Below are positions 3,235-51,960 of a DNA stretch of 64,000 bases, piece by piece. Within the stretch, counting starts at the first letter, position 1. Every line of letters starts with the position of its first letter. The notes beneath the pieces are model-generated. The model worked only from the letters and a program-made list of their open reading frames with translations. It did no database searches and was not told where the DNA came from. The position numbers and the translations under genes are program-made. The stretch is from Pristiophorus japonicus (taxonomy: Eukaryota), in assembly GCF_044704955.1 (NCBI RefSeq), contig NC_092006.1, positions 7,812,001 to 7,876,000 on the forward strand. Reading direction: 5' to 3'.

Positions 3235-3495
3235 GACATGAGAATTAGGAGCAGGAGTCGGGACACTTGGCCCCTCGAGCCTGCTCCGCCATTCAATGAG
3301 ATCACGGCTGATCTTCGACCTCAACTCCACTTTCCCGCCCGATCCCTCGATTCCACCCAGAGTGTCCAAAAATCTATCGATCTCCGTCTTGAATATACTC
3401 AATGACTGAGCCTCCACAGCCCTCTGGGGCAGAGAATTCCAAAGATACACCACCCTCTGAGTGAAGAAATTCCTCCTCATCACTGTCCTAAATGT
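3235..3495 (-). mobile_element. CR1 LINE 3' end
   Basis: MRRNFFTQRVVYLWNSLPQRAVEA plus the CR1 tail. Confidence 0.85.
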
Positions 3496-24619: not shown

Positions 24620-25340
24620 ACTTAAATAGATTCTGTTGACTGAGCAAATAGAGTCTGTCTGCTGAGTAAATACATTCTGTTTACTGAGTAAATAGATTCT
24701 GTCTGCTGAGTAAATAGGCTAGTTGCTGTGTAAATAGACTCTGTCTGCTGAGTAAATAGACTAGTTGCTGAGTAAATAGATTCTGTTTACTGAATAAATG
24801 GACTGCTGAGTAAATAGATTCTGTCTGCTGAGTAAATAGATTCTGTTTGCTGAGTAAATATACTGTGCTGAGTAAATAGACTAGTTGCTGAGTAAATAGA
24901 TTCTGTTTACTGAGTAAATAGACTGCTGAGTAAATTGATTCTGTCTGTTGAGTAAATAGATTCTGTCTGCTGAGTAAATAGATTCTGTTTGCTGAGTAAA
25001 TATACTGTCTGCTGAGTGAATAGATTTTGTTTGCTGAGTAAATAGATTCTGTTTACTGAGTAAATAAGTAACTAGATTCAGTTTACTGAGTAAATAGACC
25101 CTGTTTGCTGAATAAATAGATTCTGTCTGCTGATGAAATAGATTCTGTCTGCTGATGAAATAGATTCTGTCTGCTGAGTAAATAGACTCATTCCTGAGTA
25201 AATAGACTGTTTGCTGAGTAAATAAACTCTGTCCGCTGACTAAATAGATTCTGTTTGCTGTGTAAATAGACTGCTGAGTAAATAGACACTGTCCGCTGAG
25301 TAAATAGACTGTTTGCTGAGGTAATTGACTCCGTTTGCTG
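24620..25340. repeat. About 22-bp satellite tgctgagtaaatagattctgt(c/t), about 30 copies
   Basis: Seen directly; a shorter inverted block of the same unit lies at about 25612-25746. Confidence 0.92.
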
Positions 25341-25976
25341 TAATTCCTGCCTCCAACTCATTGGCGGACACATTGGTGTCAATAGATTTTAACCCTACTT
25401 GCTCAGCAGAAACGTGTTGGGTGGGCGGTTATAATCGTCCCTGGGCTCTTACCTGTCCAAAAAACTGCCACGATCGCAACATCTGCCATGTTAACCTGCT
25501 CTCCTGAGCAGGCGGCAAGGTCACACGCGCCCGGAGCCGACAGGGTCCTCCTTCACATGGGCATGGTGTGGCCCGATGAAATCATTTAGACCCGACTGTA
25601 ATTTTAACTCGGGCAGACAGAGTCTACTTACTCAGCAAACAGATTCCATTTACTCAGCAATGAATCTATTTACTCAGCGGACAGAGTCTATTTACTCAGC
25701 GGACAGAGTCTATTTACTCAGCGGACAGAATCTATTTACTCAGCAACGAGTGAGGAATCCACCTGGAGTTAAAATCGGGGTCTGTTTCGGAGCTAAAATA
25801 AGGAGAAGGCCTTGCTGTGATTGGCATGAATGGCAGCCAGTCAGGAGCAATAATTCAAATTCATCTTCCAGCTCAGGGTTAGATCACTTTGAAAAAAAAA
25901 TAAACAAAGACTATTCAACTTTATCATTGAGAAAAATAAATATATTCTCCATAAAAATATCTTTCTGCTTTCTAAC

Positions 25977-34156: not shown

Positions 34157-34169
34157 CTACTCAAACCCG
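34157..34169 (-). CDS. PSMB4: PSMB4 coding exon 8 (SGFE-stop)
   Basis: Acceptor tttctttatttcag, then C GGG TTT GAG TAG, completing the conserved C-terminus MISGFE. Exon lengths sum to 786 nt = 261 aa + stop. Confidence 0.93.
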
Positions 34170-34314
34170 CTGAAATAAAGAAACGCAGCGGTCATTAACA
34201 TTAGGGTGCGAGGACATCGAGGGGCCCCACTGTCCAGGGCAGAGATTGGACATCCACAGGCAATACTCTGCGAGAGCCTGCTGTTTCCCAACGTTCATCA
34301 TCATCTCCGATGGC

Positions 34315-34930
34315 GCGCTGTCGGAGGGGCGGTACTGAGGGAGCGCCGCACTGTCGGAGGGGCGGTACTGAGGGAGTGCCGCACTGTCGGAGGGGCGGCA
34401 CCGAGGGAGCGCCGCGCTGTCGGAGGGGCGGCACCGAGGGTCGGAGGGGCGGCACCGAGGGAGCGCCGCGCTGTCGGAGGGGCGGTACCGAGGGAGCGCC
34501 GCGCTGTCGGAGGGGCGGCACCGAGGGAGCGCCGCGCTGTCGGAGGGGCGGCACCGAGGGAGCGCCGCGCTGTCGGAGGGGCGGCGCTGAGGGAGCGCCG
34601 CGCTGTCGGAGGGGCGGTGCTGAGGGAGCGCCGCGCTGTCGGAGGGGCGGTGCTGAGGGAGCGCCGCGCTGTCGGAGGGGCAGCGCTGAGGGAGCGTGTC
34701 GGAGGGGCAGCACTGAGGGAGCGCCGCACTGTCGGAGGGGCAGTACTGAGGGAGCGCCGCACTGTCGGAGGGGCAGCACTGAGGGAGCGCCGCACTGTCG
34801 GAGGGGCAGCACTGAGGGAGCGCCGTACTGTCGGAGGGGCAGCACTGAGGGAGTGCCGCACTGTTGGGAGCTGCCGTCTATCGGATGGGACTCCTGTCTG
34901 CTCTCTCAGCTGGACGGAAAATCACCGGCG
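34315..34930 (+). repeat. DeuSINE-derived 33-bp array (about 17 copies) in PSMB4 intron 7
   Basis: Unit ctgtcggaggggcgg(t/c)ac(t/c)gagggagcgccgc(a/g); occupies most of the intron. Confidence 0.92.
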
Positions 34931-34949
34931 ACATCTCGCTCAAGTTTAC

Positions 34950-35038
34950 CTGATCATGTGCGCTATTTCCCAGTTGGTGTCCGTGGATAGCGGTCCCTCA
35001 ATCTCCACGCCAGCCGCGCTCACCGTCGCTATCTGGTA
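34950..35038 (-). CDS. PSMB4: PSMB4 coding exon 7
   Basis: Acceptor ttgcctccgcag. Reads [29 protein letters not shown]. Donor AG|GTAAAC; 89 nt. Confidence 0.96.
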
Positions 35039-35824
35039 CTGCGGAGGCAAACGGCAAACCGGTGGTTACATCGCTGCTGCGATGAGCAAAGGCGATTTAC
35101 AAGTGAAATATTGTCAGGAAGAACTGGTGAGCAATAAATCCCGCTGCAGCAGGCGAGGCTGGAAACCAATTAAGTCGGGAAACCGTTTGAAATGAAGTGA
35201 CTAATGAACACTGCAGCCAGGCAGTGGCAGGAGGTCAGGCTGGTGTTTGGCTCAGCAATTGCTCACGGGGCAATCTCCGACACTGGCCGCTGGCAGTGTC
35301 ACTTGCTGCCTGAATTCCCAATGTTACATCGAAATTTATCAGGATTAATTTCGCAGAATCTCGTCGCACAGGAGGATCCCATTGGGCCCACGGAGCCCGT
35401 GCTGTGCCGGCTCTGTGACAGAGCGATCCAATCAGTCCCACTCCCCCCCTGCTCTTTCCCCACAGCCCGGCACATTTCCCCCCTTCCGGTATTTACCCAA
35501 CTCCCCCGTTTGAAAGCCCCCGATTGAATCTGCTCCCACCGCCCTTTCAGGCAGCGCGTTCCCAATCACAACAACTCGCTGCGTCAAAAACACAGTCTCC
35601 CCATCTCCCCCCTCTGGTTCCATCGCCGATTATCGTCAATCTGTGTCCCCCTGGTTACCCACCCTCCTGCCCCCGGGAACAGTCTCTCCTGATTTACTCC
35701 TCAAAAACCCTCGTGATTCTGAACATCTCGGTTAAATCTCCGCCTTAACCCCGTCTCTGCTCAAAGGGGCAATACTGAGGGAGAACAATCCCAGCTTCTC
35801 CAGTCTCTACAAATAAAAAAAATT

Positions 35825-36295
35825 AATTCGCGGGATGAGTGCGTCGCTGGCAAGGACGGTATTTATTGCCCATCCCCCTAACTGCCCCTTGAGAAGGTGG
35901 TGGTGAGCCGCCTTCTTGAACCGCTGCAGTCCCGTGTGGTGAAGGTGCTCCCACAGCGTGACTTTGTCCGAGCGGTTTGTTACAGCCGAGTGGCTCTCTC
36001 GGCTGTTAAGAGTCAACCACGTCGCTGTGGGTCTGGAGTCACAAATAGGCCAGACCGGGGTAAGGGCGGCAGATTTCCTTCCGTGAAGGACATTAGTGAA
36101 CCAGATGGGTTTTTTTTTTTATGACAATCCGGTAGTTTCGTGGTCACCATTACTGATTCCAGCTTTTTAATTCCAGATTTATTTAATGAACTGAATTTAA
36201 ATTCCCCAGCTGCCGCGGTGGGATTTGAACTTGGGTCTCCTGATCTTTAGTCCAGGGTCTGGGTTACGAGTGCACTAACATAACCGCTACGCTGC
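35825..36295 (-). mobile_element. tRNA-derived SINE (same family as 5020-5362)
   Basis: B-box aagttcaaatccc; LINE-like tail. Confidence 0.78.
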
Positions 36296-36659
36296 AAGGC
36301 AGATGTTGAAGAAAAGAATTGTTCGTGCCACCAGCTGGCTGTCCGATCGGGACTAGTACCAGCCACTTGTCGTGGTCGTATGTCTATCCTAAGTGTGTGT
36401 TTGGCTATACTTGAACCACCACTCCCTTAATAAAATGCCTTATAACCCCCAAGACCCTTGCGGTTGTGTGTGTGTGTTACCTGTAATCCAAATCTTAGTG
36501 TCTCAGAGGCAGTGATGACGTGTTTGCGAGTGAATCCAAAATCATGAGCCCCAAAGCTTATTAGCCACCCTGGTTTTGCTCTCCCGAACCCCTTCCAAAT
36601 CTCTCGACTTCTGCACCCTCCTTTGAAGACCAGCTCGAAACCCATTTGTTAAACGCAGC

Positions 36660-37890
36660 TTTCAGTGCCCCCCTCCCCCCCTCCGTTGTTATTTCTGCGT
36701 CAAGCACCCTCGGAAAGGTGCCAGACTCGTGCGACACAGGTACTCTACCCGGGCGGACAGACGGCAATCGGGGTGGGTCTTCCCCCCCCCCTCTCCAAAC
36801 CTGACTGCAGCAGCATGGCTGAGCCAGCGCACAGCAGGATCCAACGTGTATCCTCCCAGGGCTGCGCGCACAGTCAGCGTTCTCTCTCTCTCTTAGGCCA
36901 ACGTCCCCAGCATTGACCACGCTGGACCAGCTTAGGTGGGCGGGCCACATTGTCCATGGCATGTTGGCCTTCATAGCGAGGGGATTTGAGTACAGGAGCA
37001 GGGAGGTCTTACTGCAGTTGTACAGGGCCTTGGTGAGGCCACACCTGGAATATTGTGTCCAGTTTTGGTCTCCTAATCTGAGGAAGGACGTTCTTGCTAT
37101 TGAGGGAGTGCAGCGAAGGTTCACCAGACTGATTCCCGGGATGGCAGGACTGACATGAGGAGAGACTGGATCGACTGGGCTTATATTCACTGGAATTTAG
37201 AAGAATGAGAGGGGACCTCATAGAAACGTATAAAATTCTGACGGGATTGGACAGGTTAGATGCGGGAAGAATGTTCCCGATGTTGGGGGAAGTCCAGAAC
37301 CAGGGGTCACAGACTAAGGATAAGGGGTAAGCCATTTAGGACCGAGATGAGGAGAAACTAGAGAATTGTGAACCTGTGGAATTCTCTACCACAGAAAGTT
37401 GTTGAGGCCAGTTTGTTAGATATATTCAAAAGGGAGTTAGATGTGGCCCTTACGGCTAAAGGGATCAAGGGGTATGGAGAGAAAGCAGGAATGGGGTACT
37501 GAAGTGCATCATCAGCCATGATCATATGGAAGGGCCGAATGGCCTACTCCCGCACCTATTTTCTATGTTTCTATGTCCGCGTGCCCGATACTGGGCTCCT
37601 GCAACAAGCACTCTACTCTGAGCTGCGTCACAGCAAGTGGGCAGAGAAAACGCTTCAAGGACACCCTTCAAAGCCTCCATGAAAAGAAATGCAACATCCC
37701 CACCGACACCTGGGAATCCCCGGCCCAAGACCCACTCAGAAGCAACTGAGAAGGCGCCGAACACCTCGAGTCTCTTCACCGGGAGCACGCGGAAGCCAAG
37801 CACAGACAGCGGAAGGAGCGCACAACAACCCAAGCACCCCCCCCACCCACCCACCCGTCCCTCCAACCACCGTCTGCTCCACCTGTGATA
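36660..37890 (+). mobile_element. RTE fragment interrupted by a CR1 3' fragment (about 36955-37575)
   Basis: TTLDQLRWAGHIV (RTE) fused to GMLAFIARGFEYRSREV (CR1); RTE sequence resumes after the CR1 tail. Confidence 0.85.
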
Positions 37891-37987
37891 GCACTTCATT
37901 GGCTGGAAAGCGCTTTGAGACGTTCAGTGGTCATGAAAGACACTATAGAAATGCAAGTCTTTTCCTCCCCTCCCTCTTCAATTCTTA

Positions 37988-38592
37988 GAATAAAAGCAGG
38001 GAAGTCTTGCTACAGTTATACAGGGTATTGGCGAGGCCACACCTGGAGTACTGCGTGCAGTTTTGGTTTCCATATTTACGAAAGGATATACTTGCTTTGG
38101 AGGCAGCTCAGAGAAGGTTCACTCGGTTGATTCCGGAGATGAGGGGGTTGTCTTATGAGGAAAGGTTGAGGAGTTTGGGCCTCTACTCATTGGAATTCAG
38201 AAGAATGAGAGGTGATCTTATCGAAACGTATAAGATTATGAGGGGGGCTCGACAAGGTGGATGCAGAGAGGATGTTTCCACTGATGGGGGAGACTAGAAC
38301 TAGGGGGCATGGTCTTAGAATAAAGGGCCGGCCCATTTAAAACTGAGATGAGGAGAAATTTCTTCTCTCAGAGGGTTGTAAATCTGTGGAATTCTCTGCC
38401 TCAGAGAGCTGTGGAAGCCGGGACATTGAATATATTTAAGACAGAGATAGACAGTTTCTTAACCGATAAGGGGGCGGGCAGGGAAGTGGAGCTGAGTCCA
38501 TGATCGGATCAGCCATGATCGTATTAAATGGCGGAGCAGGCTCGAGGGGCCGTATGGCCGACTCCTGCTCCTATTTCTGATGTTCTTATGTT
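37988..38592 (+). mobile_element. CR1 LINE 3' fragment
   Basis: LQLYRVLARPHLEYCVQFW...; tail tatttctgatgttcttatg. Confidence 0.9.
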
Positions 38593-38784
38593 CTCTAACA
38601 TTGTCCAGCTCCGACCTGAAACGTTAACTCTCGTTTCTCGCTCTGCACAGATGCTGCCCGACCCGCCGAGCGTTTCTCAGTATTAAAAGATGCCCGTTTG
38701 GCTGGCGATGGTCTCGGGTGCTGTCCCCAGTACCCGCCTTAACCCACGCCATACCCCCCCCCCCCCCCTCCTTCGGTCTCTTAC

Positions 38785-38901
38785 CCGGTTGTAGGAGCGG
38801 GCGTCCCGGTAATACAGGACCTTCAGGCAGCGCTCGATCAGCTGCCGGGCCTCGTCTTTCGAAATCAGCGGCCGATTTTCAGCCACCTCCCGCATCAGGG
38901 G
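38785..38901 (-). CDS. PSMB4: PSMB4 coding exon 6
   Basis: Acceptor cccacctctgcag. Reads [39 protein letters not shown]. Donor GTAAGA; 117 nt. Confidence 0.97.
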
Positions 38902-39016
38902 CTGCAGAGGTGGGAAGGGAAGGGGAGAGAATCAGCACAGGAGGGGGGCCGCAAGGAGCGGTTGAAACAGATTTCAGAAAGCGCGGGGCGCCGCGGCTGA
39001 AAGATGGAGAGCTCAC

Positions 39017-39098
39017 CTGTGCCAGATACGCCCCGAAGCCCGTTGCCACCGTCGGCGATTCGTAGGCAACGCCAAGCTTGTCCACGTAACCGAGGAAA
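39017..39098 (-). CDS. PSMB4: PSMB4 coding exon 5
   Basis: Acceptor tctcctctgcag. Reads [27 protein letters not shown]. Donor GTGAGC; 82 nt. Confidence 0.97.
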
Positions 39099-39143
39099 CT
39101 GCAGAGGAGATTTGGTAAACGGTTGAAAAAAAATATATATACA

Positions 39144-40057
39144 GGGGTGGAAATTCCGTCCGCAGTTGCCTCCCGACCGGAGAATTTTTACGCATCGTGG
39201 TTTCCGATTCCGGTGGGGAGACCTTCTCTTGCCCCGCCGCGCTCCCGTCCGGAGGGTTCCCACGCGCAGAAGGTGCAGTCACGTGTGTTAGGTTCAGAAT
39301 AAATCCACAGGACTGTATCGAGAGCTCAAAACTGCTGCAACCTTGGTCTCTTTATTCAGACTCCAGAGTGGGGAAGCAGCATTGTGAATCACCTTTTATA
39401 CCTGCTTGCCCCAGGGTGCACAGGTGACCCTTGGGTCTCCCACAGGCCTGCCCCCGAGCGGCGAGTCTTACATATTGGTGAGGTTTACATACAGACACAA
39501 CGTGTGACTGCTCAGCCAATCAGGTACAGTATACCACAGCTTACCCGTTAATAGCAACGGGAACTCCGTATTGACCAGTTCTCAGTGCTATTAATGGGGG
39601 AAAAAAAACTCTCGCTAATAAAAAATTAAAAAAACAGAGCTCACATAGTTAAAATTAATTGAAATTAAAGTTAATAAATGCCTTAGAAAAAAACTTTTAA
39701 AAAATTTTGTAAGTCAGGTTAAAAATAAACTTACCTTAGTGGGCAGAGTTTTACAAACAATTATTTAATTTAATTTTATTGTGTTTATGTATGTTTGAAA
39801 ACACTGTAAAAGCAGGCTACGTGACAGCTTTTTCCAGGCGCAAGAACTTTGAGGACGTTTGCTGGGCAAGATATGCGTAAATCACGCAATTGTGCTCGTA
39901 CCCGATCTGCGGATCATCGGTCCAGCTCCAGCTGGACAGAGCGGAAAAGCCGGTTTTCAGCACATGCGCATTGTGTGCCGAAAACCGGCTTTTCCCCGAT
40001 GCCTTCCCGGGTCTGTGGAAACTTCGTACGGGCCCGGGAGGTCGGAATTTCTACCCC
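39144..40057. mobile_element. Non-autonomous DNA transposon / MITE (possibly PIF-Harbinger type)
   Basis: 15-bp TIRs ggggtggaaattccg / cggaatttctacccc (14/15 match); no coding capacity seen. Confidence 0.6.
39286..39499 (-). mobile_element. Solo LTR nested in the MITE
   Basis: TG...CA ends, 5-bp TSD acgtg (39281 and 39500), minus-strand TATAAAAG and AATAAA. Confidence 0.78.
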
Positions 40058-40129
40058 ATTATCTCTCCATTTGGGCATCTCCTCGGACAGCTTTAACCGC
40101 GTGGCTACTGATGCGTTGTCGGCCGCATC

Positions 40130-41135
40130 ACAGAAAAGTTACGCCGCGGAAGGAGGCCATTCGGCCCATCGTGTCCCGCGCCGGCCGACAAAGAGCCACC
40201 CGGCCTAATCCCACTTTCCCGCTCTCGGTCCATAGCCCTGCAGGTTACGGCACTTCAAGTGTTACATCCAGGTACTTTTTAAATGTGGTGAGGGTTTCTG
40301 CCTCTACCACCCTTTCAGGCAGTGAGTTCCACCCCAGACCCCCACCACCCTCTGGGTGAAGACATTTCCCCTCAAATCCCCTCTAAACCCCCCCCCAATT
40401 ACTTTAAATCTATGGCCCCCTGGTTGTTGACCCCTCTGCCAAGGGAAACAGGTCCGTCCTATCCACTCTATCCAGGCCCCTCATCATTTTATACACCTCA
40501 ATCAGGTCTCCCCTCAGCCTCCTCTGTTCCAAAGAAAACAACTCCAGCCTATCCAATCTTTCCTCATTGCTAAAATTCTCCAGTCCTGGCAACATCCTGG
40601 TAAATCTCCTCTACACCCTCTCTAGTGCAACATCCTGGTAAATCTCCTCAATACCCTCTCCAGTGCAACATCCTGGTAAATCTCTGAACTCTCTCTAGTG
40701 CAATATCCTGGTAAATCTCCTCTGTACCCTCTCCAGTGCAACATCCTGGTAAATCTCCTCTGTACCCTCTCCAGTGCAACATCCTGGTAAATCTCTGAAC
40801 TCTCTCTAGTGCAATATCCTGGTAAATCTCCTCTGTACCCTCTCCAGTGCAACATCCTGGTAAATCTCCTCTGTACCCTCTCTAGTGCAACATCCTGGTA
40901 AATCTCCTCTGTACCCTCTCTAGTGCAACATCCTGGTAAATCTCCTCTGTACCCTCTCCAGTGCAACATCCTGGTAAATCTCCTCTGCACCCTCTCCAGT
41001 GCAATCACATCTTTCCTGTAATGTGGTGACCAGAACTGCACGCAGTACTCCAGCTGTGGCCTAACCAGTGTTTTATACAGTTCAAGCATAACCTCCCTGC
41101 TCTTGTATTCTATGCCTCGGCTAATAAAGGCAAGT
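40130..41135 (-). mobile_element. CR1 3' fragment with 38-bp tandem array (about 40588-41003, about 11 copies)
   Basis: Repeated ALERVQRRFTRML segment; unit agtgcaacatcctggtaaatctcctctgtaccctctcc. Confidence 0.9.
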
Positions 41136-41404
41136 AGTCTGTGTGCTCATCATGGATCGATCCCGGTCTCTCACTGCACAGATCTCGCTGGCTCCCGGAC
41201 CTGCGCACTGGCTGGGACAGGGCCTGGAGATGGTGGGAAAGTGCATCGCCACCCCGTCGCTCCATCCCACCCTGCCCCATGGAAGAAGTTATAAAGTGCA
41301 GCCCCAAAATTGCAGCCTTGCAATAAAATGACAAGAGTAATGGTCTATTAAATCCCTGTTTGTACTTGTGCCCAGAGGAGAAGACGCTATTTATACAGCG
41401 CCGT

Positions 41405-42180
41405 GTCAGGCCGTAGCTCAGTGAGCAGCAGTCTCTCTCGCCTCAGCGTCAGAAGGTCATGGGTTCCAGTCCCACTCCAGAGCGTTAAGTACAAAATTCA
41501 GGCCGCTACTCCAATGCCCCGCACTGTCGGAGGGGCGGTACTGAGGGAGCGCCGCACTGTCGGAGGGGCGGTACTGAGGGAGCGCCGCACTGTCGGAGGG
41601 GCGGTACTGAGGGAGCGCCGCACTGTCGGAGGGGCGGTACTGAGGGAGCGCCGCACTGTCGGAGGGGCGGTACTGAGGGAGCGCCGCACTGTCGGAGGGG
41701 CGGTACTGAGGGAGCGCCGCACTGTCGGAGGGGCGGTACTGAGGGAGCGCCGCACTGTCGGAGGGGCGGTACTGAGGGAGCGCCGCACTGTCGGAGGGGC
41801 GGTACTGAGGGAGCGCCGCACTGTCGGAGGGGCGGTACTGAGGGAGCGCCGCACTGTCGGAGGGGCAGTACTGAGGGAGTGCCGCACTGTCGGAGGGGCA
41901 GTACTGAGGGAGCGCCGCACTGTCGGAGGGGCAGTACTGAGGGAGCGCCGCACTGTCGGAGGGGCGGTACTGAGGGAGCGCCGCACTGTCGGAGGGGCGG
42001 TACTGAGGGAGCGCCGCACTGTCGGAGGGGCGGTACTGAGGGAGCGCCGCACTGTCGGAGGGGCGGTACTGAGGGAGTGCCGCACTGTGGGAGGGGCGGT
42101 ACTGAGGGAGCGCCGCACCGTCGGAGGGGCAGTACTGAGGGAGCCCCGCACTGTCGGAGCTGCCGTCTTTCGGATGAGAC
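41405..42180 (+). mobile_element. DeuSINE 5' part with homogeneous 33-bp array (about 19 copies)
   Basis: tRNA-like head at about 41405-41480; near-identical units 41520-42160. Confidence 0.92.
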
Positions 42181-42369
42181 TTCACTTAAGAACATGAATG
42201 AACCAGTTGGACCCAGCAACTCCCACGGTGCCAGATTATTGGATTCAATCTCACAACTTGGTGTGACTTGGTGGTTGGCACGCTCGACCAGCCCCTTGTA
42301 CCGAGGGCACGCTGCGAGTGTTTGAGGTTGGGCAGCGCGCTGTGGTCCTACGCGCTCCTTTCCACCCAC

Positions 42370-42432
42370 CTTTCGCCTTTGTTCATTCCGCCGATGATGA
42401 CTGTGTTCCACAGAGGGTTCATCTTGCACCTC
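42370..42432 (-). CDS. PSMB4: PSMB4 coding exon 4
   Basis: Acceptor tctctcttgcag. Reads RCKMNPLWNTVIIGGMNKGE. Donor AG|GTGGGT; 63 nt, phases match both neighbours. Confidence 0.96.
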
Positions 42433-42732
42433 CTGCAAGAGAGAGAAAAAGGTTGGCTTGGACGGGGCAGCTCTCGGTTAGCAAGTGGGGGTCTCTGGCC
42501 CCAGGATACCCCCACTCTTGTGCACTGGCCAACCAACGCACGCAGTGGCAAACATCGCGTTTAACATGGCTGCCAACAACGCGTATTGATTTTGTTGCAC
42601 ACCTCCGTACAAAGACCATCACTTCACACATCCTCTTTTCTACACAATTGCAGGGTTCACTCAAAGACGCACACATTTGATAACAGCACAGGTTACACTG
42701 GGACAAATTTTCAGTCCGTTTTCATACACGCG

Positions 42733-43068
42733 ATCGGGGGCCCAGGAGAGGCGAGGGCCCAGGGGCAGCACGGGCCCAGCCCACACTGTGCGATGTGTGC
42801 GTGCACTGGGCCCGTGCAGCAGAGCTGGTCTCCAGTCGTCTTGGTTAACCCTTGCCCCTGGACCAAGACCTCGCTCTGTCAAGCCCGTGTGGTGGCTGGT
42901 GTGCAACGGTCACCCCACGTTAAAAAAATCCACCCACAGGGATCTTCCACCCTTCAGGGTGGAGTTCGTGACCTGGAATATTAGGTCCTTCACTGAAACA
43001 CCTGTGAACCCATCCACTGGCGTGGAAGCAAGTCATCCTCGATACGAGGGACCACCCATGATGATAAT
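42733..43068 (+). mobile_element. RTE-derived short element
   Basis: Hairpin gcacgggcccag/ctgggcccgtgc, EFVTWNIRS remnant, tail gaagcaagtcatcctcgatacgagggac...atgatgata. Confidence 0.8.
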
Positions 43069-43079
43069 GCATTGATACA

Positions 43080-43510
43080 GCGCCTGTGGCGTCCTTAGGC
43101 GCTTCACAGGAGCGATTATCAAACACAATTTAACACCGAGCCACACAAGGAGATATTAGGGACAGGCGACCAAAAGCTGGGTCAAAGAGTTCGGTTTGAA
43201 GGAGCGTCTTAAAGGAAGAGAGAGAGGCGGAGTGGTTTAGGGAGGGAGTTCCAGAGCTCGGGGCCCAGGCAGCTGAAGGCACGGCCACCGATGGTGGAGC
43301 GATGGAAATCGGGGGATGCTCAGGAGGGCAGAATTAGAGGAGCGCAGAGATCTCGGGGGGGGGGGGTATGTGGGGCTAGAGGAGGTTACAGAGATAGGGA
43401 GGGGTGAGGAGGCCATGGAGGGATTTGAAAACGAGGACGAGAATTTTAAAATGGAGGCGGTGCCGGCCCGGGAGCCGATGTGGGTCATCGGGCACGGCGG
43501 GTGATGGGTA
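43080..43510 (-). mobile_element. L2 LINE 3' end
   Basis: Same L2 tail as at 15125-15480. Confidence 0.82.
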
Positions 43511-43574
43511 AACGCCACTGTGGCTGGATGCACTCAGCTGTAAGTGACTCCGCTGTAGAAAGAAGCAAGAGCCA

Positions 43575-44548
43575 TTTACAATCTATATTAACGACTTGGA
43601 AGAAGGGACTGAGTGTAACGGAGCCAAGTTTGCTGACGATACAAAGATGGGAGGAAAAGCAATGTGTGAGGAGGACACACACAATCTGCAGAAGGACCTC
43701 GACAGGCTAAGTGAGTGGGCAAAAGTTTGGCCGATGGAGTATAATGTGGGAAAGTGTGAGGTCGTGCACTTCGGCAGAAAAAAAAAATCAAAGAGCAAGT
43801 TATTATTTAAATGGAGAAAGATTGCAAAGTGCCGCAGTACAGCGGGACCTGGGGGTACTTGTGCATGAAACACAAAAGGATAGTATGCAGGTACAGCAAG
43901 TGATCAGGAAGGCCAATGGTATCTTGGCCTTTATCGCAAAGGGGATGGAGTATAAAAGCAGGGAAGTCTTGCTACAGTTATACAGGGTATTGGTGAGGCC
44001 ACACCTGGAATACTGCGTGCAGTTTTGGTCTCCGTATTTACGAAAGGATATACTTGCTTTGGAGGCAGTTCAGAGAAGGTTCACTCGGTTGATTCCGGGG
44101 ATGAGGGGGTTGACTTATGAGGAAAGGTTGAGTAGGTTGGGCCTCTACTCATTGAAATTCAAAAGAATGAGAGGTGATCTTATCGAAACGTATAAGATTA
44201 TGAGGGGGCTTGACAAGTGGATGCAGAGAGGATGTTTCCACTGATGGGGGAGACTAGAACTAGAGGGCATGATCTTAGAATAAGGGGCCGCCCATTTAAA
44301 ACTGAGATGAGGAGGAATTTCTTCTCTGAGGGTTGTAAATCTGTGGAATTTGCTGCCTCAGAGAGCTGTGGAAGCTGGGACATTAAATAAATTTAAGACA
44401 GAGATAGACAGTTTGTTAACCGAAAGGGATAAGGGGGCGGGGCAGGGAAGTGGAGCTGAGTCCATGATCGGATCAGCCATGATCGTATTAAATAGCGGAG
44501 CAGGCTCAAGGGGCCGAATGGCAGACTCCTGCTCCTATTTCTTATGTT
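43575..44548 (+). mobile_element. CR1 LINE 3' fragment
   Basis: [33 protein letters not shown]. Confidence 0.92.
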
Positions 44549-44575
44549 CGTCTGCTGCTCGCACAATAAGTTCAC

Positions 44576-44659
44576 CTGTTGTACATGACTCTGGTCAGCC
44601 AGGAATGGATCGCCTTCGGACTGTAGCTGTGACCATCTCCAAGCAGTTCTTCATCGATC
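44576..44659 (-). CDS. PSMB4: PSMB4 coding exon 3
   Basis: Acceptor tttctccccag. Reads [27 protein letters not shown]. Donor AG|GTGAAC; 84 nt. Not in the ORF track; translated by hand. Confidence 0.96.
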
Positions 44660-44904: not shown

Positions 44905-47445
44905 GTCAAATTACTCAGCAAACAGAATCTACTTAAACAGCGCACATGCTCAACAGTCTGCAGAATCTATTTAAACAGCGCGCTACAACAGTCTGCAGAA
45001 TCTATTTAAACACACTGCAACAGTCTACAGAATCTATTTAAACACACTGCAACAGTCTGCAGAATCTATTTAAACACACTGCAACAGTCTGCAGAATCAA
45101 TTTAAACACACTACAACAGTCTACAGAATCTATTTAAACACACTGCAACAGTCTGCAGAATCTATTTAAACACACTGCAACAGTCTACAGAATCTATTTA
45201 AACACACTGCAACAGTCTGCAGAATCTATTTAAACACACTGCAACAGTCTGCAGAATCAATTTAAACACACTACAACAGTCTACAGAATCTATTTAAACA
45301 CACTGCAACAGTCTGCAGAATCAATTTAAACAGCGCGCTACAACAGTCTACAGAATCTATTTAAACACACTGCAACAGTCTGCAGAATCTATTTAAACAC
45401 ACTGCAACAGTTTGCAGAATCAATTTAAACAGCGCGCTACAACAGTCTACAGAATCTATTTAAACACACTGCAACAGTCTACAGAATCTATTTAAACACA
45501 CTGCAACAGTCTGCAGAATCTATTTAAACAGCACACTACAGCTAACAGTCTGCAGAATCTATTTAAACACCATCATCATCATCACAGGCGGTCCCTCGAA
45601 GCGAGGTGACTTGCTGCCACGCCAAAAAAGGATGAGTTTACAGGTGTTTCGATGAAGGACCCGATATTCCGGATCCCGAACTACATCCTGAAGGGTGGAA
45701 GATGCCGGTGTGTGGATTTTTTTTTTTAACGTGGGGTGGCCGTTGCACACCAGCCACCACACGGGGCTTGACAGAGCGAGGTCTTGGTCCAGGGGCAAGG
45801 ATTAACCAGGGCAACTGGAAACCAGCTCTGCTGCACGGAACCAGTGCGCCCACATATCGCACAGTGTGGGCTGGGCCCGTGCTGCCCCAAGATGACTGGA
45901 GCCCAGCTCTGCTGTACAGACTTAGTGCACACATCATCATCATCATAGGCAGCCCCTCGGAATCGAGGAAGACTTGCTTCCACTCTTAAAATGAGTCCTT
46001 AGATGGCTGAACAGTCCAATACGAGAGCCACAGTCCCTGTCACAGGTGGGACAGACAGTGGTTGAGGGAAGGGGAGGGTGGGACTGGTTTGCCGCACGCT
46101 CCTTCCGCTGTCTGCGCTTGGTTTCTGCACGCTCTCGGCGACGAGACTCGAGGTGCTCAGCGCCCTCCCGGATGCACTTCCTCCACTTAGGGCGGACTGG
46201 TCTTTGGGCCAGGGACTCCCAGGTGTCGGTGGGGATCTTGCACTTTATCAGGGAGGCTGTGAGGGTGTCCTTGAAGCATTTCCTCTGCCAACCTTGGGCC
46301 TGTTTGCCGTGAAGGAGTTCCGAGTAGAGCGCTCGCTTTGGGAGTCCCGTGTCGGGGGCATGTGGACAATGTGGCCCTGCCCAGCGGAGCTGGTCGAGTG
46401 TGGTCAGTGCTTCGATGCTGGGGATGTTGGCCTGGTCGAGGACGCTAACGTTGGTGCGTCTGTCCTCCCAGGGGATTTGCAGGATCTTGCAGAGACATCG
46501 TTGGTGGTATTTCTCCAGCGATTTGTGGTGTCTGCTGTATATGATCCATATAGGTATTTGTACACCATGGGCAGTCCATCGAGTCGAGGATGACTTGCTC
46601 CCACGGCAAAAAGTTCACAGGTGTTTCAATGAAGGACCTAATATTCCGGATCCCGAACTACATCCTGAAGGGTGGAAGATGCCTGTGGGTGGATTTTTTT
46701 AACGTGGGGTGACCGTTACACATCAGCCACCACACGGGCTTGACAGAGCGAGGTCTTGGTCTAGGGGCAAGGGTTAACCAGGACGACTGGAGACCAGCTC
46801 TGCTGCACGGACCCAGTGCGCACACATATCGCACAGTGTGGGCTGGACCCGTGCTGCCCCTGGGCCCTCGCCTCTTCTGGGCCTCGATCACGTCCCTCTA
46901 CAAACTCTCGCAGCTCCTTCGCCCCGACCTCGCCACTCCTGCTGTACCTGCCCACGCTCCAATCACCGACCTGGACCTTGATGACGTCACTGCTGCTCCC
47001 TTGGAGTGGTATGCCTCCACGCTGCTCCCGAGGCCGCTCGCCACTCCTTTTGTGGCCCCGACCTGCCACTGGTGTTCTCATGCAGGTTGGGGCCTCCATG
47101 CTATGCACACACTACAGCAGTCTACAGAATCTATTTAAACAGAACACTACAGCAAACAGTCTACAGAATCTATTTAAACAGATCACTATAAGCAAGCAGT
47201 CTACAGAATCTATTTAAACAATGCACTACAGCAGTCTACAAAATCTATTTAAACAACGCACTACAGCAAACAGTCTGCAGAATCTAATTAAACAACGCAC
47301 TACAGCAAACAGTCCACAGAATCTAGTTAAACACACTACAGCAAACAGTCTACAGAATCTATTTAAATACAGAAAACAGTCTACAGAATCTATTTATAAA
47401 CAGAACAGTGCAGAAAACAGTCTACAGAATCTATTTAAACAGCGC
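44905..47445. repeat. 32-bp satellite acactgcaacagtct(a/g)cagaatctatttaaac, split by RTE insertions (about 45570-47103)
   Basis: Arrays at about 44930-45570 and 47105-47445. The interval holds two RTE-derived short elements and an RTE 3' fragment (about 45935-46545), all minus strand. Confidence 0.88.
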
Positions 47446-47626
47446 AGTCTCCATTCCAGCCGGGAATAATTGGTGTCACTCTAGGCAGCTGTGTCATTAG
47501 CCGAGGGTCTCTATTACTGGCGTGCGGGCTTTCTCCCACTGGAGGACTCGCTAACGCCGCGCGGGAGTGAACAGGCGGCAGGCAGAGAGCGCCGACTGCA
47601 GCAAGGCCACCGCGCCCGTCACTTAC

Positions 47627-47833
47627 ATCATCTGCTCGATGGCCTGCTTGAGGTACTGGTAATCGGCGTAGTCGCCCGAGGCCCCCAGGATCGTGCTCTC
47701 GTTCACTTTCATCAGCCGGGGTATGTTGCGGAACCGCGCCATGGACCCGTAGGAGCCCAGCATATCGGCGGCAAGAATGACGCCGCCGTCGAACTTCAAC
47801 CCGAGCACCGAGGTACCCGTCACCATGGGACTC
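47627..47833 (-). CDS. PSMB4: PSMB4 coding exon 2
   Basis: Acceptor ttttttgcag. Reads [68 protein letters not shown], the proteasome beta-7 signature. Donor GTAAGT; 207 nt. Confidence 0.97.
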
Positions 47834-48052
47834 CTGCAAAAAACAAGGCCGCGTTAGCAACAGGAGGCCATTCAGCCCATCGAACTTCACCCGGAGGTCC
47901 CAGTCACCATGGGACTCCTGCAAAAAAACAAGGCCGCGTTAGGAACAGGAGGCCATTCAGCCCATCGAATTTCACCCCGAAGTACCCGTCACCATGGGAC
48001 TCCTGCAAAAAACAAGGCTGCATTAGCAACAGGCCATTCAGCCCATCAAACC
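47786..48052 (-). repeat. Tandem triplication (84/85-bp period) of the PSMB4 intron 1/exon 2 junction
   Basis: tcaccatgggactcctgcaaaaaa(a)caagg occurs three times, with acceptor junctions at 47833, 47917 and 48002. Confidence 0.92.
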
Positions 48053-48377
48053 CGTTCCTACTACTACTACTAGGCAGTCCCTAGTAACAAGGATGATGTT
48101 CACACCAACAAAAGATGGGATAACAGGTGTAACAATGAGTTACATCTTAAAGGATGGATTTTTTTAACATCGGGTGGCCGTTGCACACCAGCCACCACAC
48201 GGGCTTGACAGAGTTAGGTCTTGGTCCAGTGGCGAGGATTGACCAAGACGACTGGAGACCTGCTCTGCTGCACGATAGAGGTGCAAGGCCTTCCATGGCC
48301 AAATAGACAAGGTCATCATTCACTAGCTGGAACCCAGCCCCTGAAGAGCACCCGGGAGGGGTTGAAATGTACATTAG

Positions 48378-50430
48378 CGTCATGGTACATCAGTCATTGA
48401 AAGTTGGCATGCAGGTACAGCAGGCGGTGAAGAAGGCAAATGGCATGTTGGCCTTCATAGCGAGAGGATTTGAGTATAGGAGCAGGGAGGTCTTACTGCA
48501 GTTGTACATGGCCTTGGTGAGACCATACCTGGGATATTGTGTTCAGTCTTGGTTTTCTAATCTGAAGGAGGACATTCTTGCTATTGAGGGAGTGCAGCGA
48601 AGGTTCGCCAGACTGATTCCCAGGATGGCAGGACTGACATATCAAGAAAGATTGCATTGACTAGGCTTATACTCACTGGAGTTTAGAAGAACGAGAGGGG
48701 ATCTCATAGAAACATATAAAATTCTGACGGGATTGGACAGGTTAGATGCAGGAAGAATGTTCCTGATGTTGGGGAAGTCCAGAACCAGGGGGTCATAGTC
48801 TAAGGATAATGGGTAAGCCATTTAGGACCGAGATGAGGAGAAACTTCTTCACTCAGAGAGTTGTGAACCTGTGGGATTCGCTGCCTCAGAGAGCTGTGGA
48901 AGCTGGGACATTGAATAAATTGAAGACAGAAATAGACAGTTTCTTAACCGATAAGGGGATAAGGGGGCGGGCAGGGAAGTGGAGCTGAGTCCATGATCAG
49001 ATCAGCCATGATCTTACTAAATGGCGGAGCAGGCTCGAGGGGTCGTATGGCCCACTCCTGCTCCTATTTCTTATGTTCTTCTGTTTGTCCTGAGATGAAG
49101 AAAGGCACTATAGAAATACATCTTTTTTTTGATGGGGGTGGGGGAAGAAGAGAAGTGGGGCAAGTTTGATTCCCGGCTATGCGGGAGGCAATACATTCCT
49201 ATTTCGAGGGGACATCGGGCACATATGCCACACCTTCCATGGGCGAACAGCGGCGCGCACACACACACACGCATGGGGAGGGTTGGAAAAGGGAATGTTG
49301 GCCACTCACAACCTGCAGCCCAGATCAGGGCCCAGGAGAGCGGAGGTCCCAGGGGCAGCACGGGCCCAGCCCACACTGTGCGATACGTGTGCGCGCTAGG
49401 TCGTGCAGCAGAGCTGGTCTCCAGTCATCCTGGTTAACCCTCGCCACTGGACTGAGACCGAGCTTTTTTCTATCCTTCACTGAAACACCTGTGAACTCAT
49501 CCCTTTTCGGCATGGAAGCAAGTCATCCTCGTTTCGAGGGACTGCCTATGATGATGATGATAAAGCCTCAGTCCCTTTGAAGATTCACTCAACTAGAAGT
49601 GGCTGGAGGACAGGGACAGAGAAGAGAGGCAAGAGGATTAAGAGTGTAAGAATTAGGAGTCAGGAGTAGGCCGTTCAAGCCCGCTCCACCATTCAACAAG
49701 ATCACGGCCGATCTGATCTTGGCCTCAACACCACTTGCCCCCTCCCCATAACCCACAACTCTCTTGTCATTCAAAAAACTCTATCTATCTCCATCTTGAA
49801 TATATTCAATGAACATAAGAAATAGGAGCAGGAGTCGGCCATACGGGCCCTCGAGCCTGCTCCGCCATTTAAGATCATGGACTCAGCTCCACTTCCCCGC
49901 CTGCTCCCCATAACCCTTCACTCCCTTATCGCTCAAAAATCTGTCTATCTCTGTCTTAAATTTATTCAATGTCCCGGCTTCCACAGCTCTCTGAGGCAGC
50001 GAATTCCACAGATTTACAACCCTCTGAGAGAAGAAATTTCTCCTCATCTCAGTTTTAAATGGGCGGCCCCTTATTCTAAGACCATGCCCCCTAGTTCTAG
50101 TCTTCTTTAGGACCGAGATGAGGAGAAACTTCTTCACTCAGAGAATTGTGAACCTGTGGAATTCTCTACCACAGAAAGTTGTTGAGGCCAGTTCGTTGGA
50201 TATATTCAAAAGGGAGTTAGATGTGGCCCTTGCAGCTAAAGGGATCGAGGGGGTATGGAGAGAAAGCAGGAATGGGGTACTGAGGGAATGATCAGCCATG
50301 ACCTTATTGAATGGCGGTGCAGGCTCGAAGGGCCGAATGGCCTCCCCCTGCTCCTATTTTCTATGTTTCTATCAGTGGAAACATCCTCTCTGCATCCACC
50401 TTGTCGAGCCCCCTCATAATCTTATACATT
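48378..50430. mobile_element. Cluster of CR1 3' fragments in both orientations plus an RTE-derived short element (about 49322-49560)
   Basis: CR1 motifs on + (48378-49080, 50105-50370) and on - (49645-50103, 50370-50428). Confidence 0.85.
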
Positions 50431-50805
50431 GCGTGTGTGTGGGGTGGAAACCCTGAGGCGAGCGGGCAGGGGAAGGCATTGACCTTCTCTAACACCCACC
50501 CACAAAAAAAACCCCCATCTATTGAGCCACGGGGGGCATCGCAGCTGGGTTGGCGGTGCCCCCCATAGCCGAATAGCAAAGGGGAAAAAATTATGGGCTT
50601 CATTTCCCCGCTGCAGCCTTCTGAAATAGTTGTTGGAGGAGGAAATGGGGGGGGGGGGGAGAAGCCCATCTTGCTGGAGGAAGAGGAAGGAGAGGGAAGA
50701 AGAAGAAAAAAATCTCCATTTTGTCTTCCATGAGACAGCGAAAAAAAAATTAAACATTATTTTTTAAGTTTCTTTTTAAAAAGATTGCCTCTGGCCCATA
50801 CTCAC

Positions 50806-50936
50806 AGCGTGTGCCGCGCCGGCCCCGTCTGGCTGGCCGGTAGCGAGTAGAAGCTGCCCGGACTGGCGCCTCCACCGCCCCACATTCCCAGGCCGCCCAG
50901 CCGCAGTTCCAGCCCCGGTCCGCTCGCCGCCGCCAT
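50806..50936 (-). CDS. PSMB4: PSMB4 coding exon 1 (N-terminal propeptide)
   Basis: ATG at 50936 in aagATGgcggc. Reads MAAASGPGLELRLGGLGMWGGGGASPGSFYSLPASQTGPARHT, resembling human GLWAGGPAPGQFYRIP...GPITRT. Donor GTGAGT at 50805; 131 nt, phase 2. Confidence 0.88.
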
Positions 50937-50964
50937 CTTACCCGCACTGAAGGGGAGAGGGAGG

Positions 50965-51960
50965 GGCACACCACTGCTCCCCGGGGGGGGGGAATCCAGG
51001 CCTTCAACACAATACCAAATCTCACCCAATCCCCACCCACACCCCTCTCACACACACACCCCGCATTATCTCATTTACTTAACTCAGCTTAGTCACTATT
51101 GTCCGCGGCTCGGCTGCTTATTCACGCTCTAAAGATCTTATTTTTGCATTCGTATTACCTTGGGAGTGAATGGTGCAGTCCCTGTCGCCAGGGCACACCA
51201 CTCTGCCCAGGGAGGGGGGGGAACTATCCCTGAACACAACACCAATTTTCACCCAATCCCCACCCACACCCCTCTCTCACACACACCCCGCATTATCTCA
51301 TTTATCTAACTCAGCTTAGTCACTATTGTCCGCGGCTCGGCTGCTTATTCACCCTTTAAAGATCACATTTTTGCATTCGTATTACCTTGGGAGTGAATGG
51401 TGCAGTCCCTGTCGCCAGGGCACACCACTCTGCCCAGGGAGGGGGGGGGAACTATCCCTGAACACAACACCAATTTTCACCCAATCTCCACCCACACCCC
51501 TCTCACACACAGACACCCCGCATCATGTCACCAAACTAACTCAGCTTAATCACCATTGCCCGCTGCTCAGCTGCTTATTCACTCTTTAAACACCATTATC
51601 TTTTAATTGTCATTACCTTCTGAGTGAATGGTGCAGTCGCTGTCAATCAAACTGCGGCAGGGCACACCATTCTATCCAACGGGGGGAACTATGCCTGAAC
51701 ACAACACCAATTCTCACCTAATCCCCACCCACATCACTCTCACACACACACCCCGTATCACAGCATTAAAATAACCCATAGAAATCACATTTCCCCGCTG
51801 CTCAGCTGCTTCTTCACGCGTTAAAGACCATATATTTTTATTGTCATTACCTTCAGAGTGAATGATGCAGTCCGTGTCAATCAAACTTGGCCAGGGCATA
51901 CCATTCTGCCCAGGGGGGGAACTATTTGGGGAACTATCCCTGAACACAACACCAATCCTC
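50965..51960. repeat. About 230-245-bp unit x4 immediately upstream of the PSMB4 ATG
   Basis: acacaacaccaat...aactcagctt...ttacctt...gagtgaatg...gggcacacca...ggggaactat recurs at about 51007, 51234, 51462, 51699 and 51944. Confidence 0.88.

What the first reader, a model, noticed from the sequence alone, without database searches (positions are those of the whole stretch)
47786..48052. Triplicated PSMB4 exon-2 splice acceptor: two upstream decoy 3' splice sites that both lead to a stop
Seen: the intron 1/exon 2 junction occurs three times in tandem. Each copy keeps a branch-point-like CTAAC/CTAAT, a U-tract and CAG. Both upstream copies (junctions 47917 and 48002) share a small deletion and read [12 protein letters not shown], so using them would give 291- or 376-nt exons with a premature stop. 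The duplication breakpoint sits on microhomology between the exon (gccgtcgaac) and an intronic CR1-tail remnant (cccatcgaac). Inference: in a core proteasome gene these are either silenced decoys or a lineage-specific poison-acceptor/NMD switch.
Basis: partly seen in the sequence, partly recalled or inferred. Interest (0 to 1): 0.7.

Follow-up and report, generated by a model that had tools for sequence, protein, structure and literature searches.

The report
Triplicated but unused PSMB4 splice acceptor
The splice signal in front of exon 2 of a proteasome gene, likely of a shark, is present three times in a row, but the assembled transcripts seen use only the copy next to the real exon, so the two extra copies are likely harmless leftovers of an old duplication, much like a known human variant in the CBS gene.

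Summary
The triplication is real: an 85-bp unit, 2.9 copies, with acceptors at 47833 (A), 47917 (B) and 48002 (C) in an intact, single-copy PSMB4. Use of B or C would give 291- or 376-nt exons with a stop at codon 54. A DNA run that may be the assembly's source holds 0.98 of the sampled words. In 3 of 3 spliced runs (one study), contigs join donor 50806 straight to A. A close lay of one run shows no contig using B or C, although a variant contig at 0.2% of the main depth survived there. The unit starts in a CR1 LINE tail that supplies the branch-point-like motif and forms tandem arrays at 7 of 12 other loci. The copies differ by 6-10%, so the event is old. A stop is the default outcome of such a duplication, not a sign of design. 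Best reading: passively ignored decoys, likely through exon definition, like human CBS 844ins68. A poison switch has no support but was not tested under NMD block. Unexplained: 4 of 4 substitutions before the stop are synonymous, and three tighten a hairpin over B. The scan noted a similar donor array elsewhere in this genome.

The parts
47808..48051 (-). Tandem array of three intron 1/exon 2 junction units, period 84-85 nt
50806..50936 (-). PSMB4 exon 1 (coding part) with the GT donor at 50805
   Evidence: spliced joint
48003..48050 (-). Intronic part of copy C: CR1-tail remnant, CTAAT (branch A predicted at 48023), extra AG at -17, T-tract, CAG
47966..48002 (-). Exon-start copy C, 37 nt with the 7-nt deletion; TGA begins at 47974; weak possible donor after 47976
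47918..47965 (-). Intronic part of copy B: CR1-tail remnant, CTAAC (branch A predicted at 47939), T7 tract, CAG
47881..47917 (-). Exon-start copy B, 37 nt with the 7-nt deletion; TGA begins at 47889; three substitutions that tighten a local hairpin; weak possible donor after 47891
47834..47880 (-). Intronic part of the used acceptor A: CR1-tail remnant, CTAAC (branch A predicted at 47854), T6 tract, CAG
47627..47833 (-). PSMB4 exon 2, 207 nt, in frame; best PDB match proteasome subunit beta type-4 (E 5e-33)
44576..44659 (-). PSMB4 exon 3 (84 nt); exon 2 to exon 3 splice seen as a loose end in three runs
34157..42432 (-). PSMB4 exons 4-8 (63, 82, 117, 89 and 13 coding nt); the eight exons give an unbroken 261-aa frame
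   Evidence: boundaries placed by hand from sequence

Best explanation
This is an old tandem triplication of the PSMB4 intron 1/exon 2 junction in which assembled transcripts use only the downstream acceptor, likely because only that copy is followed by the full exon and pairs with the exon 2 donor at a normal distance. Shown: three near-identical acceptors; direct splicing to A in contigs of three runs; a CR1 tail at the start of each unit that holds the branch-point-like motif; the same tail forming tandem arrays elsewhere. Inferred history: a CR1 tail came to lie in the branch-point region; a 91-nt duplication from the tail into exon 2 (2-4 nt of microhomology) made a second acceptor; slippage between two CTCGG repeats removed 7 nt; a second duplication made the third copy; the copies then drifted about 5% each. 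Inferred mechanism: with flanking introns of 2972 and 2967 nt the exon is defined across the exon, which favours A (207 nt) over B (291 nt) and C (376 nt). Any leak to B or C would give a premature stop and be wasted, without regulatory meaning.
For: The joint 47832-50805 (exon 1 to A) has depth 2874, 1966 and 2342 in X5, X6 and X7 and 0 in DNA run X1; it skips both upstream acceptors; none of the 15 listed joints reaches 47917 or 48002 (468 joints not shown). In all three runs a contig has 23 or more letters on both sides of the joint, so it passes the positions +16 and +22 where B and C diverge from A (inference). In the close lay of X5, 22 contigs were laid; one 169-nt contig runs unbroken from exon 2 into exon 1; the five loose ends and one joint listed for X5 include none at B or C; a one-mismatch variant contig at depth 8.37 survived beside one at 3475 in exon 2. 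Intron lengths. Human data show that exon-defined exons shift towards the acceptor nearest across the exon and towards shorter exons (PMC9225289, section 9 and passages read). Precedent: CBS 844ins68, where the distal of two duplicated sites is strongly favoured and normal mRNA is made (PMC2630376 and PMC1802585, passages read). The 25-nt tail word occurs 23 times exactly in G000 (control 0) and lies in a tandem array at 7 of 12 fetched loci. B and C keep GTG (Val) where exon A now has TTG (Leu), while the top PDB chain has Val and organism B has GTG, so the copies predate a coding change in the exon.
Against: Contigs show presence, not absence, and drop rare forms; the three spliced runs come from one study, are not on record as RNA, and may be other individuals than the genome; only 1 of 3 was laid closely. 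The same human study reports an overall preference for the upstream 3' site that is only 'significantly reduced' under exon definition, so exon definition alone may not give near-exclusive use of A. A and B are identical from -14 to +15 apart from one T, so core signals do not explain the choice. 4 of 4 substitutions in the nine codons before the stop are synonymous (naive p 0.005, post hoc), and B's three tighten a hairpin (1.4% of 20,000 random triples do as well); pure drift does not predict either pattern.
Confidence: 0.72

Rival explanations
1. The decoys are unused because they are actively masked: G-runs bound by hnRNP H/F between the sites (as in CBS 844ins68) or a selected hairpin over B's AG/exon start, with C weakened by an extra AG and an altered branch motif.
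For: B's three substitutions turn three mismatches into pairs in a 9-bp hairpin that includes the acceptor G: -14.2 versus -8.5 kcal/mol for the inferred ancestor; reached by 1.4% of 20,000 random triples and 27 of 1134 synonymous triples. C has CTAAT and an extra AG at -17. Each spacer holds three G-runs; G-runs promote the distal site in CBS (PMC1802585, passage).
Against: In native context the predicted unpaired probability at AG|G is no lower for B (0.08-0.15) or C (0.13-0.20) than for the used site A (0.06-0.09) in 4 of 4 window sizes. The first 84 nt of the real exon also hold three G-runs. Both intronic changes in C are CpG-type transitions. Short template switches can create such hairpin-perfecting clusters without selection (PMC5453318, PMC8794818; search listing and abstract starts only).
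Confidence: 0.15
2. B and C are regulated poison acceptors that tune PSMB4 output through NMD in some tissue or under proteasome stress.
For: Both acceptors keep an intact branch-like motif, T-tract and CAG after 6-10% divergence. The stop lies 260 and 345 nt before the end of exon 2 with six junctions downstream. Steady-state contigs can miss decay-sensitive forms.
Against: Contigs of 3 of 3 runs join across both sites to A. A stop is the default outcome for this duplication. The stop is at coding nt 160, where decay is often inefficient (PMC12776119). With about 4 substitutions per 80-nt copy, survival of the short core motifs needs no selection (inference). No paper linking PSMB4 to a poison exon was listed.
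Confidence: 0.06
3. The exon-start copies work as 27-nt in-frame micro-exons: acceptor C (or B) pairs with a weak GT donor just before the stop and adds a second SPMVTGTSG near the start of the mature subunit.
For: A GT after nt +27 in both copies gives a symmetric 27-nt exon and an open frame, [22 protein letters not shown]. This would explain why 4 of 4 substitutions in those 27 nt are synonymous.
Against: The donors match the consensus at only 4 (C) and 5 (B) of 9 positions, against 5-7 for the gene's seven real donors; B would leave a 57-nt intron. Contigs of three runs join exon 1 straight to A, and no X5 contig shows the insert.
Confidence: 0.04
4. The triplication is an assembly artefact.
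For: All DNA runs that hold it well (X1-X4) come from one sample that may be the assembly's source.
Against: The copies differ by 5-8 substitutions plus indels per pair, unlike a mis-assembled copy. X1 holds 0.98 of 52 sampled 31-letter words across 47560-48110.
Confidence: 0.01

Closest known systems
Human CBS 844ins68 allele (PMC2630376 and PMC1802585, passages read; the primary papers Romano 2002 and Tsai 1996 were not held)
   Same: Natural tandem duplication of an intron/exon junction; two near-identical 3' splice sites less than 100 nt apart; the downstream site is used and normal mRNA is made; G-runs lie between the sites.
   Different: Three copies, not two; 84-85 nt units; copies diverged by 6-10%, so likely old rather than a recent polymorphism; the unit starts in a CR1 tail that carries the branch-like motif; no disease mutation is rescued; no hnRNP H data.
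Human F7 intron 7 37-bp VNTR (PMC1557585, abstract read)
   Same: A tandem repeat spans an exon-intron boundary and multiplies a splice site; the copies normally stay silent and the exon-proximal site is used.
   Different: F7 repeats a donor, this locus an acceptor; F7 is a variable human minisatellite with near-identical units.
CR1-tail minisatellites of this genome (L009-L011, L013, L017, L019, L020)
   Same: The same tail word lies in the repeat unit.
   Different: Those units are 37-43 bp of tail alone, in most loci with 35 or more copies; here the 85-bp unit also takes in a host acceptor and 37-44 nt of exon, in three copies.
Poison exons / AS-NMD switches such as SR-protein poison exons (search listing only; features otherwise recalled)
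   Same: Use of the alternative site would bring in a premature stop upstream of several junctions.
   Different: No isoform seen, no shown conservation, no shown regulation; the stop is start-proximal.

Membership tests
Naturally duplicated silent 3' splice site (CBS 844ins68 type) | Tandem duplication that spans the intron/exon junction and copies the acceptor | tested here: met
Naturally duplicated silent 3' splice site (CBS 844ins68 type) | The downstream, exon-proximal site is used and normal mRNA is made | tested here: met
   Joint exon 1 to 47833 in contigs of 3 of 3 spliced runs, one study; rare forms not excluded
Naturally duplicated silent 3' splice site (CBS 844ins68 type) | G-runs between the sites silence the upstream site | tested here: inconclusive
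   Three G-runs in each spacer but also three in the first 84 nt of the real exon; binding and mutation not testable
Naturally duplicated silent 3' splice site (CBS 844ins68 type) | Presence/absence polymorphism in the population | not testable with these tools
   Only one DNA sample of organism A was listed
Poison exon / AS-NMD switch | Premature stop more than 50-55 nt upstream of the last junction | tested here: met
   Stop at codon 54 with six downstream junctions; but start-proximal, nt 160
Poison exon / AS-NMD switch | The unproductive isoform is made | tested here: not met
   Contigs join across B and C to A in 3 of 3 runs; none uses B or C in the close lay of X5. Contigs only, no NMD block, so a rare form is not excluded
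Poison exon / AS-NMD switch | The poison element is conserved across species | tested here: inconclusive
   One low-depth contig of organism B aligns to exon 2 and 10 nt of intron, then runs on for 174 letters with no listed piece on the copies; organisms C and D gave no exon 2 cover
Poison exon / AS-NMD switch | Use changes with a condition or rises under NMD inhibition | not testable with these tools
   No raw reads or treated samples were offered
CR1-tail minisatellite | Unit contains the CR1 3' tail | tested here: met
CR1-tail minisatellite | Unit is about 40 bp of tail alone | tested here: not met
   Unit is 84-85 bp and includes host acceptor and exon start
PSMB4 (proteasome beta-7) gene | Exon 2 peptide matches beta type-4; intact frame; single locus | tested here: met
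   PDB E 5e-33; 261-aa frame over eight exons; 1 match in G000

The most novel reading that the evidence does not exclude
A retroposon-tail-seeded duplication has given a core 20S proteasome gene a lineage-specific splice switch: in some tissue or under proteotoxic stress the upstream copies are used, either as poison acceptors gated by the hairpin over B or as a 27-nt in-frame micro-exon that lengthens the N-terminus of mature beta-7, and the synonymous-only and hairpin-tightening substitutions are the trace of selection on that switch.
Probability: 0.08. Interest if true: 0.65.

Novelty: new member of a known kind. Interest (0 to 1): 0.2.

Why it matters
As read here it matters little: it is one more natural case in which a duplicated splice site is ignored in favour of the copy next to the full exon. 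It has modest value as a ready-made three-site test of acceptor choice in a cartilaginous fish, since A and B are identical from -14 to +15 apart from one T, and as an example of a LINE tail that likely supplies the branch point of an essential gene's intron. If the upstream sites proved to be regulated, it would be a young splice switch on a core proteasome subunit; searches listed no paper on such a switch in PSMB4.

Tried and rejected
No RNA holder was listed as such by the run search; X5-X7 were taken as RNA only because their contigs are spliced. X5 has no cover at 47902-47939 and 47978-48053; cover alone proves nothing, and the argument rests on the joint across this part. The RNA depth of 690-940 in bin 47928-48044 looked like use of the copies; the close lay puts it on 47940-47977, the CR1 tail word, which is as deep or deeper in organisms B, C and D, so it comes from repeats elsewhere. 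The joint 47885-47940 joins two tail words with other letters between and also occurs in organism B; rejected as a repeat from another locus. Organism B (X10): one 783-nt contig at depth 4.2 aligns to 47619-47843 with 19 differences and runs on for 174 letters with no listed piece or joint on the copies; a weak hint that the triplication is absent there, since the letters were not shown and 256 pieces were not listed. Organisms C and D (X12, X13) gave no exon 2 cover. Of 15 listed runs, 7 were laid. RNA structure as the selector: accessibility does not separate A from B or C. G-run count: no difference. A PSMB4 paralogue or pseudogene as donor of B's letters: one locus only in G000. The first exon model had exon 3/4 boundaries off by one base; corrected. 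Romano 2002, Tsai 1996 and Lindeboom 2016 were not held, so they are cited only through other papers. No MaxEnt scoring was available; donor matches are plain counts. No supplements were read.

Full report
Observation. The minus strand at 47786-48052 holds three tandem copies of the intron 1/exon 2 junction. TRF gives 47808-48051, period 85, 2.9 copies, 88% matches. The first exon bases are 47833 (A), 47917 (B) and 48002 (C), and the upstream donor follows 50806. A gives a 207-nt in-frame exon; B and C would give 291 and 376 nt and stop at codon 54, coding nt 160. The gene is PSMB4: the exon 2 peptide matches proteasome beta type-4 chains at E 5e-33, eight exons give an unbroken 261-aa frame, and G000 has one such locus.

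Is it real DNA? The best DNA run, which may be the assembly's source, holds 0.98 of 52 sampled words over 47560-48110; three more runs of the same sample hold 0.77. The copies differ by 8 of 81 (B-C), 5 of 84 (A-B) and 5 of 81 (A-C) substitutions plus indels once the 7-nt gap is placed by hand (B-C; the other two counted). This is not what a mis-assembled copy looks like. No second individual was available.

Anatomy and origin. Each unit begins in a CR1-type LINE 3' tail. The 25-nt tail word occurs 23 times exactly in G000, control 0; 4 of 12 fetched loci carry CR1 ORF2-like C-terminal peptides upstream (family label recalled), and 7 of 12 lie in tandem arrays of 37-43 bp built from the tail. 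The branch-point-like CTAAC/CTAAT falls in the part that matches these tail units, so the tail likely supplies the branch point of this intron (inference). The 7-nt deletion shared by B and C lies between two CTCGG repeats 7 nt apart, which fits slippage. B and C keep GTG where exon A has TTG; the top PDB chain has Val there and organism B has GTG, so the copies are older than that change. Each copy carries about 4 substitutions in 80 nt, against 12 synonymous differences in roughly 50 sites between organisms A and B, which puts the event very roughly at a third of the time since that split; C's +33 letter also matches organism B, so homoplasy or conversion blurs this estimate. Local duplication is common here: 18% of the window is in tandem arrays, and 1 of 16 exon ends of the gene lies in one.

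Which acceptor is used? X5, X6 and X7 (organism A, three samples, one study) are not on record as RNA but are spliced. All three join 50806 to 47833, at depth 2874, 1966 and 2342; DNA run X1 shows 0. None of the 15 listed joints reaches B or C; 468 weaker joints were not shown. In each run a contig has at least 23 letters on both sides of the joint and so passes the positions where B (+16) and C (+22) diverge (inference). The close lay of X5 placed 22 contigs; a 169-nt contig runs from exon 2 into exon 1 without a break; the five loose ends and one joint listed for X5 include none at B or C; and a one-mismatch variant at depth 8.37 survived beside a contig at 3475. That suggests, but does not prove, that a B or C isoform near 1% would have left a contig. 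Contigs drop rare forms, and no raw reads were offered.

How it likely works. A and B are identical from -14 to +15 but for one T, so the choice must come from context. Both flanking introns are near 3 kb, which points to exon definition. In human data, exon definition shifts choice towards the site nearest across the exon and towards shorter exons, although an overall upstream preference for 3' sites is only reduced (PMC9225289, section 9 and passages). Only A is followed by the whole exon and gives a length under 250 nt. I take this as the most likely mechanism (0.72); it is inferred, not shown. Active masking is the main rival (0.15): B's three substitutions tighten a hairpin over its acceptor (-14.2 versus -8.5 kcal/mol; 1.4% of 20,000 random triples), but predicted accessibility in context is no lower at B or C than at A in 4 of 4 window sizes, and G-run counts are equal.

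The stop is not evidence of design. The undeleted 91-nt unit would shift the frame, and the 84-nt B spacer holds three in-frame stops. The stop is start-proximal, where decay is often weak, with a boundary that varies from about 22 to 100 codons by gene (PMC12776119, passages); codon 54 is within that range, so NMD sensitivity is uncertain either way.

What stays unexplained. All 4 substitutions in the nine codons before the stop are synonymous (naive p 0.005, post hoc). Three of them are the hairpin changes in B, so the two patterns are not independent; short template switches are a known source of such clusters (PMC5453318, PMC8794818; listing only). A GT after nt +27 in both copies could define a 27-nt in-frame micro-exon, but the donors are weak (4 and 5 of 9 matches) and no contig shows it.

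Relatives. This is a weak hint that the array is lineage-specific.

Comparison and novelty. [quoted passage not shown] It meets the two core features of that kind and fails the 'isoform is made' test for a poison exon at the depth available. Searches listed no paper on this locus. Earlier notes of this scan describe a donor array in STKLD1 and a LINE-tail acceptor-like satellite in the same genome (not checked here). Verdict: new member of a known kind, interest 0.2; most novel reading 0.08.

Noticed in passing
window 42433-44575 (minus strand): A 2143-nt GT-AG intron at an AG|G site splits an 84-nt and a 63-nt exon that together make 147 nt; human PSMB4 has, from recall, one 147-nt exon 3 and seven exons, so this may be an intron gained in this lineage or lost in mammals.
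   Followed up: partly
window 50964-51878: A 227-bp unit repeated 4 times ends 28 nt upstream of the PSMB4 start codon, so the likely promoter or 5' UTR region is itself tandemly duplicated.
   Followed up: no
window 47799: Exon 2 has TTG (Leu) where copies B and C, organism B and the top PDB chain have Val; the change also removes a GT inside the exon.
   Followed up: partly
window 48057-48345: A dispersed repeat with a short (TAG)n end lies directly upstream of copy C; 39 other places in G000 match its end. It may have truncated the CR1 copy whose tail remains.
   Followed up: partly
window about 50828: Contigs of X6 and X7 break about 23 nt inside exon 1, and in X6 the upstream piece has lower depth, which may mark a heterozygous site in the propeptide coding part (inference).
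   Followed up: no
L009-L011, L017, L019, L020: Minisatellites of 39-43 bp built from the CR1 3' tail, 1.4 kb to at least 3 kb long, several clustered on single contigs.
   Followed up: partly
window 47109-47442 and 44951-45570: Two related 32-39 bp minisatellites in PSMB4 intron 2, similar to the 22/44-bp arrays at 24623-25751.
   Followed up: no
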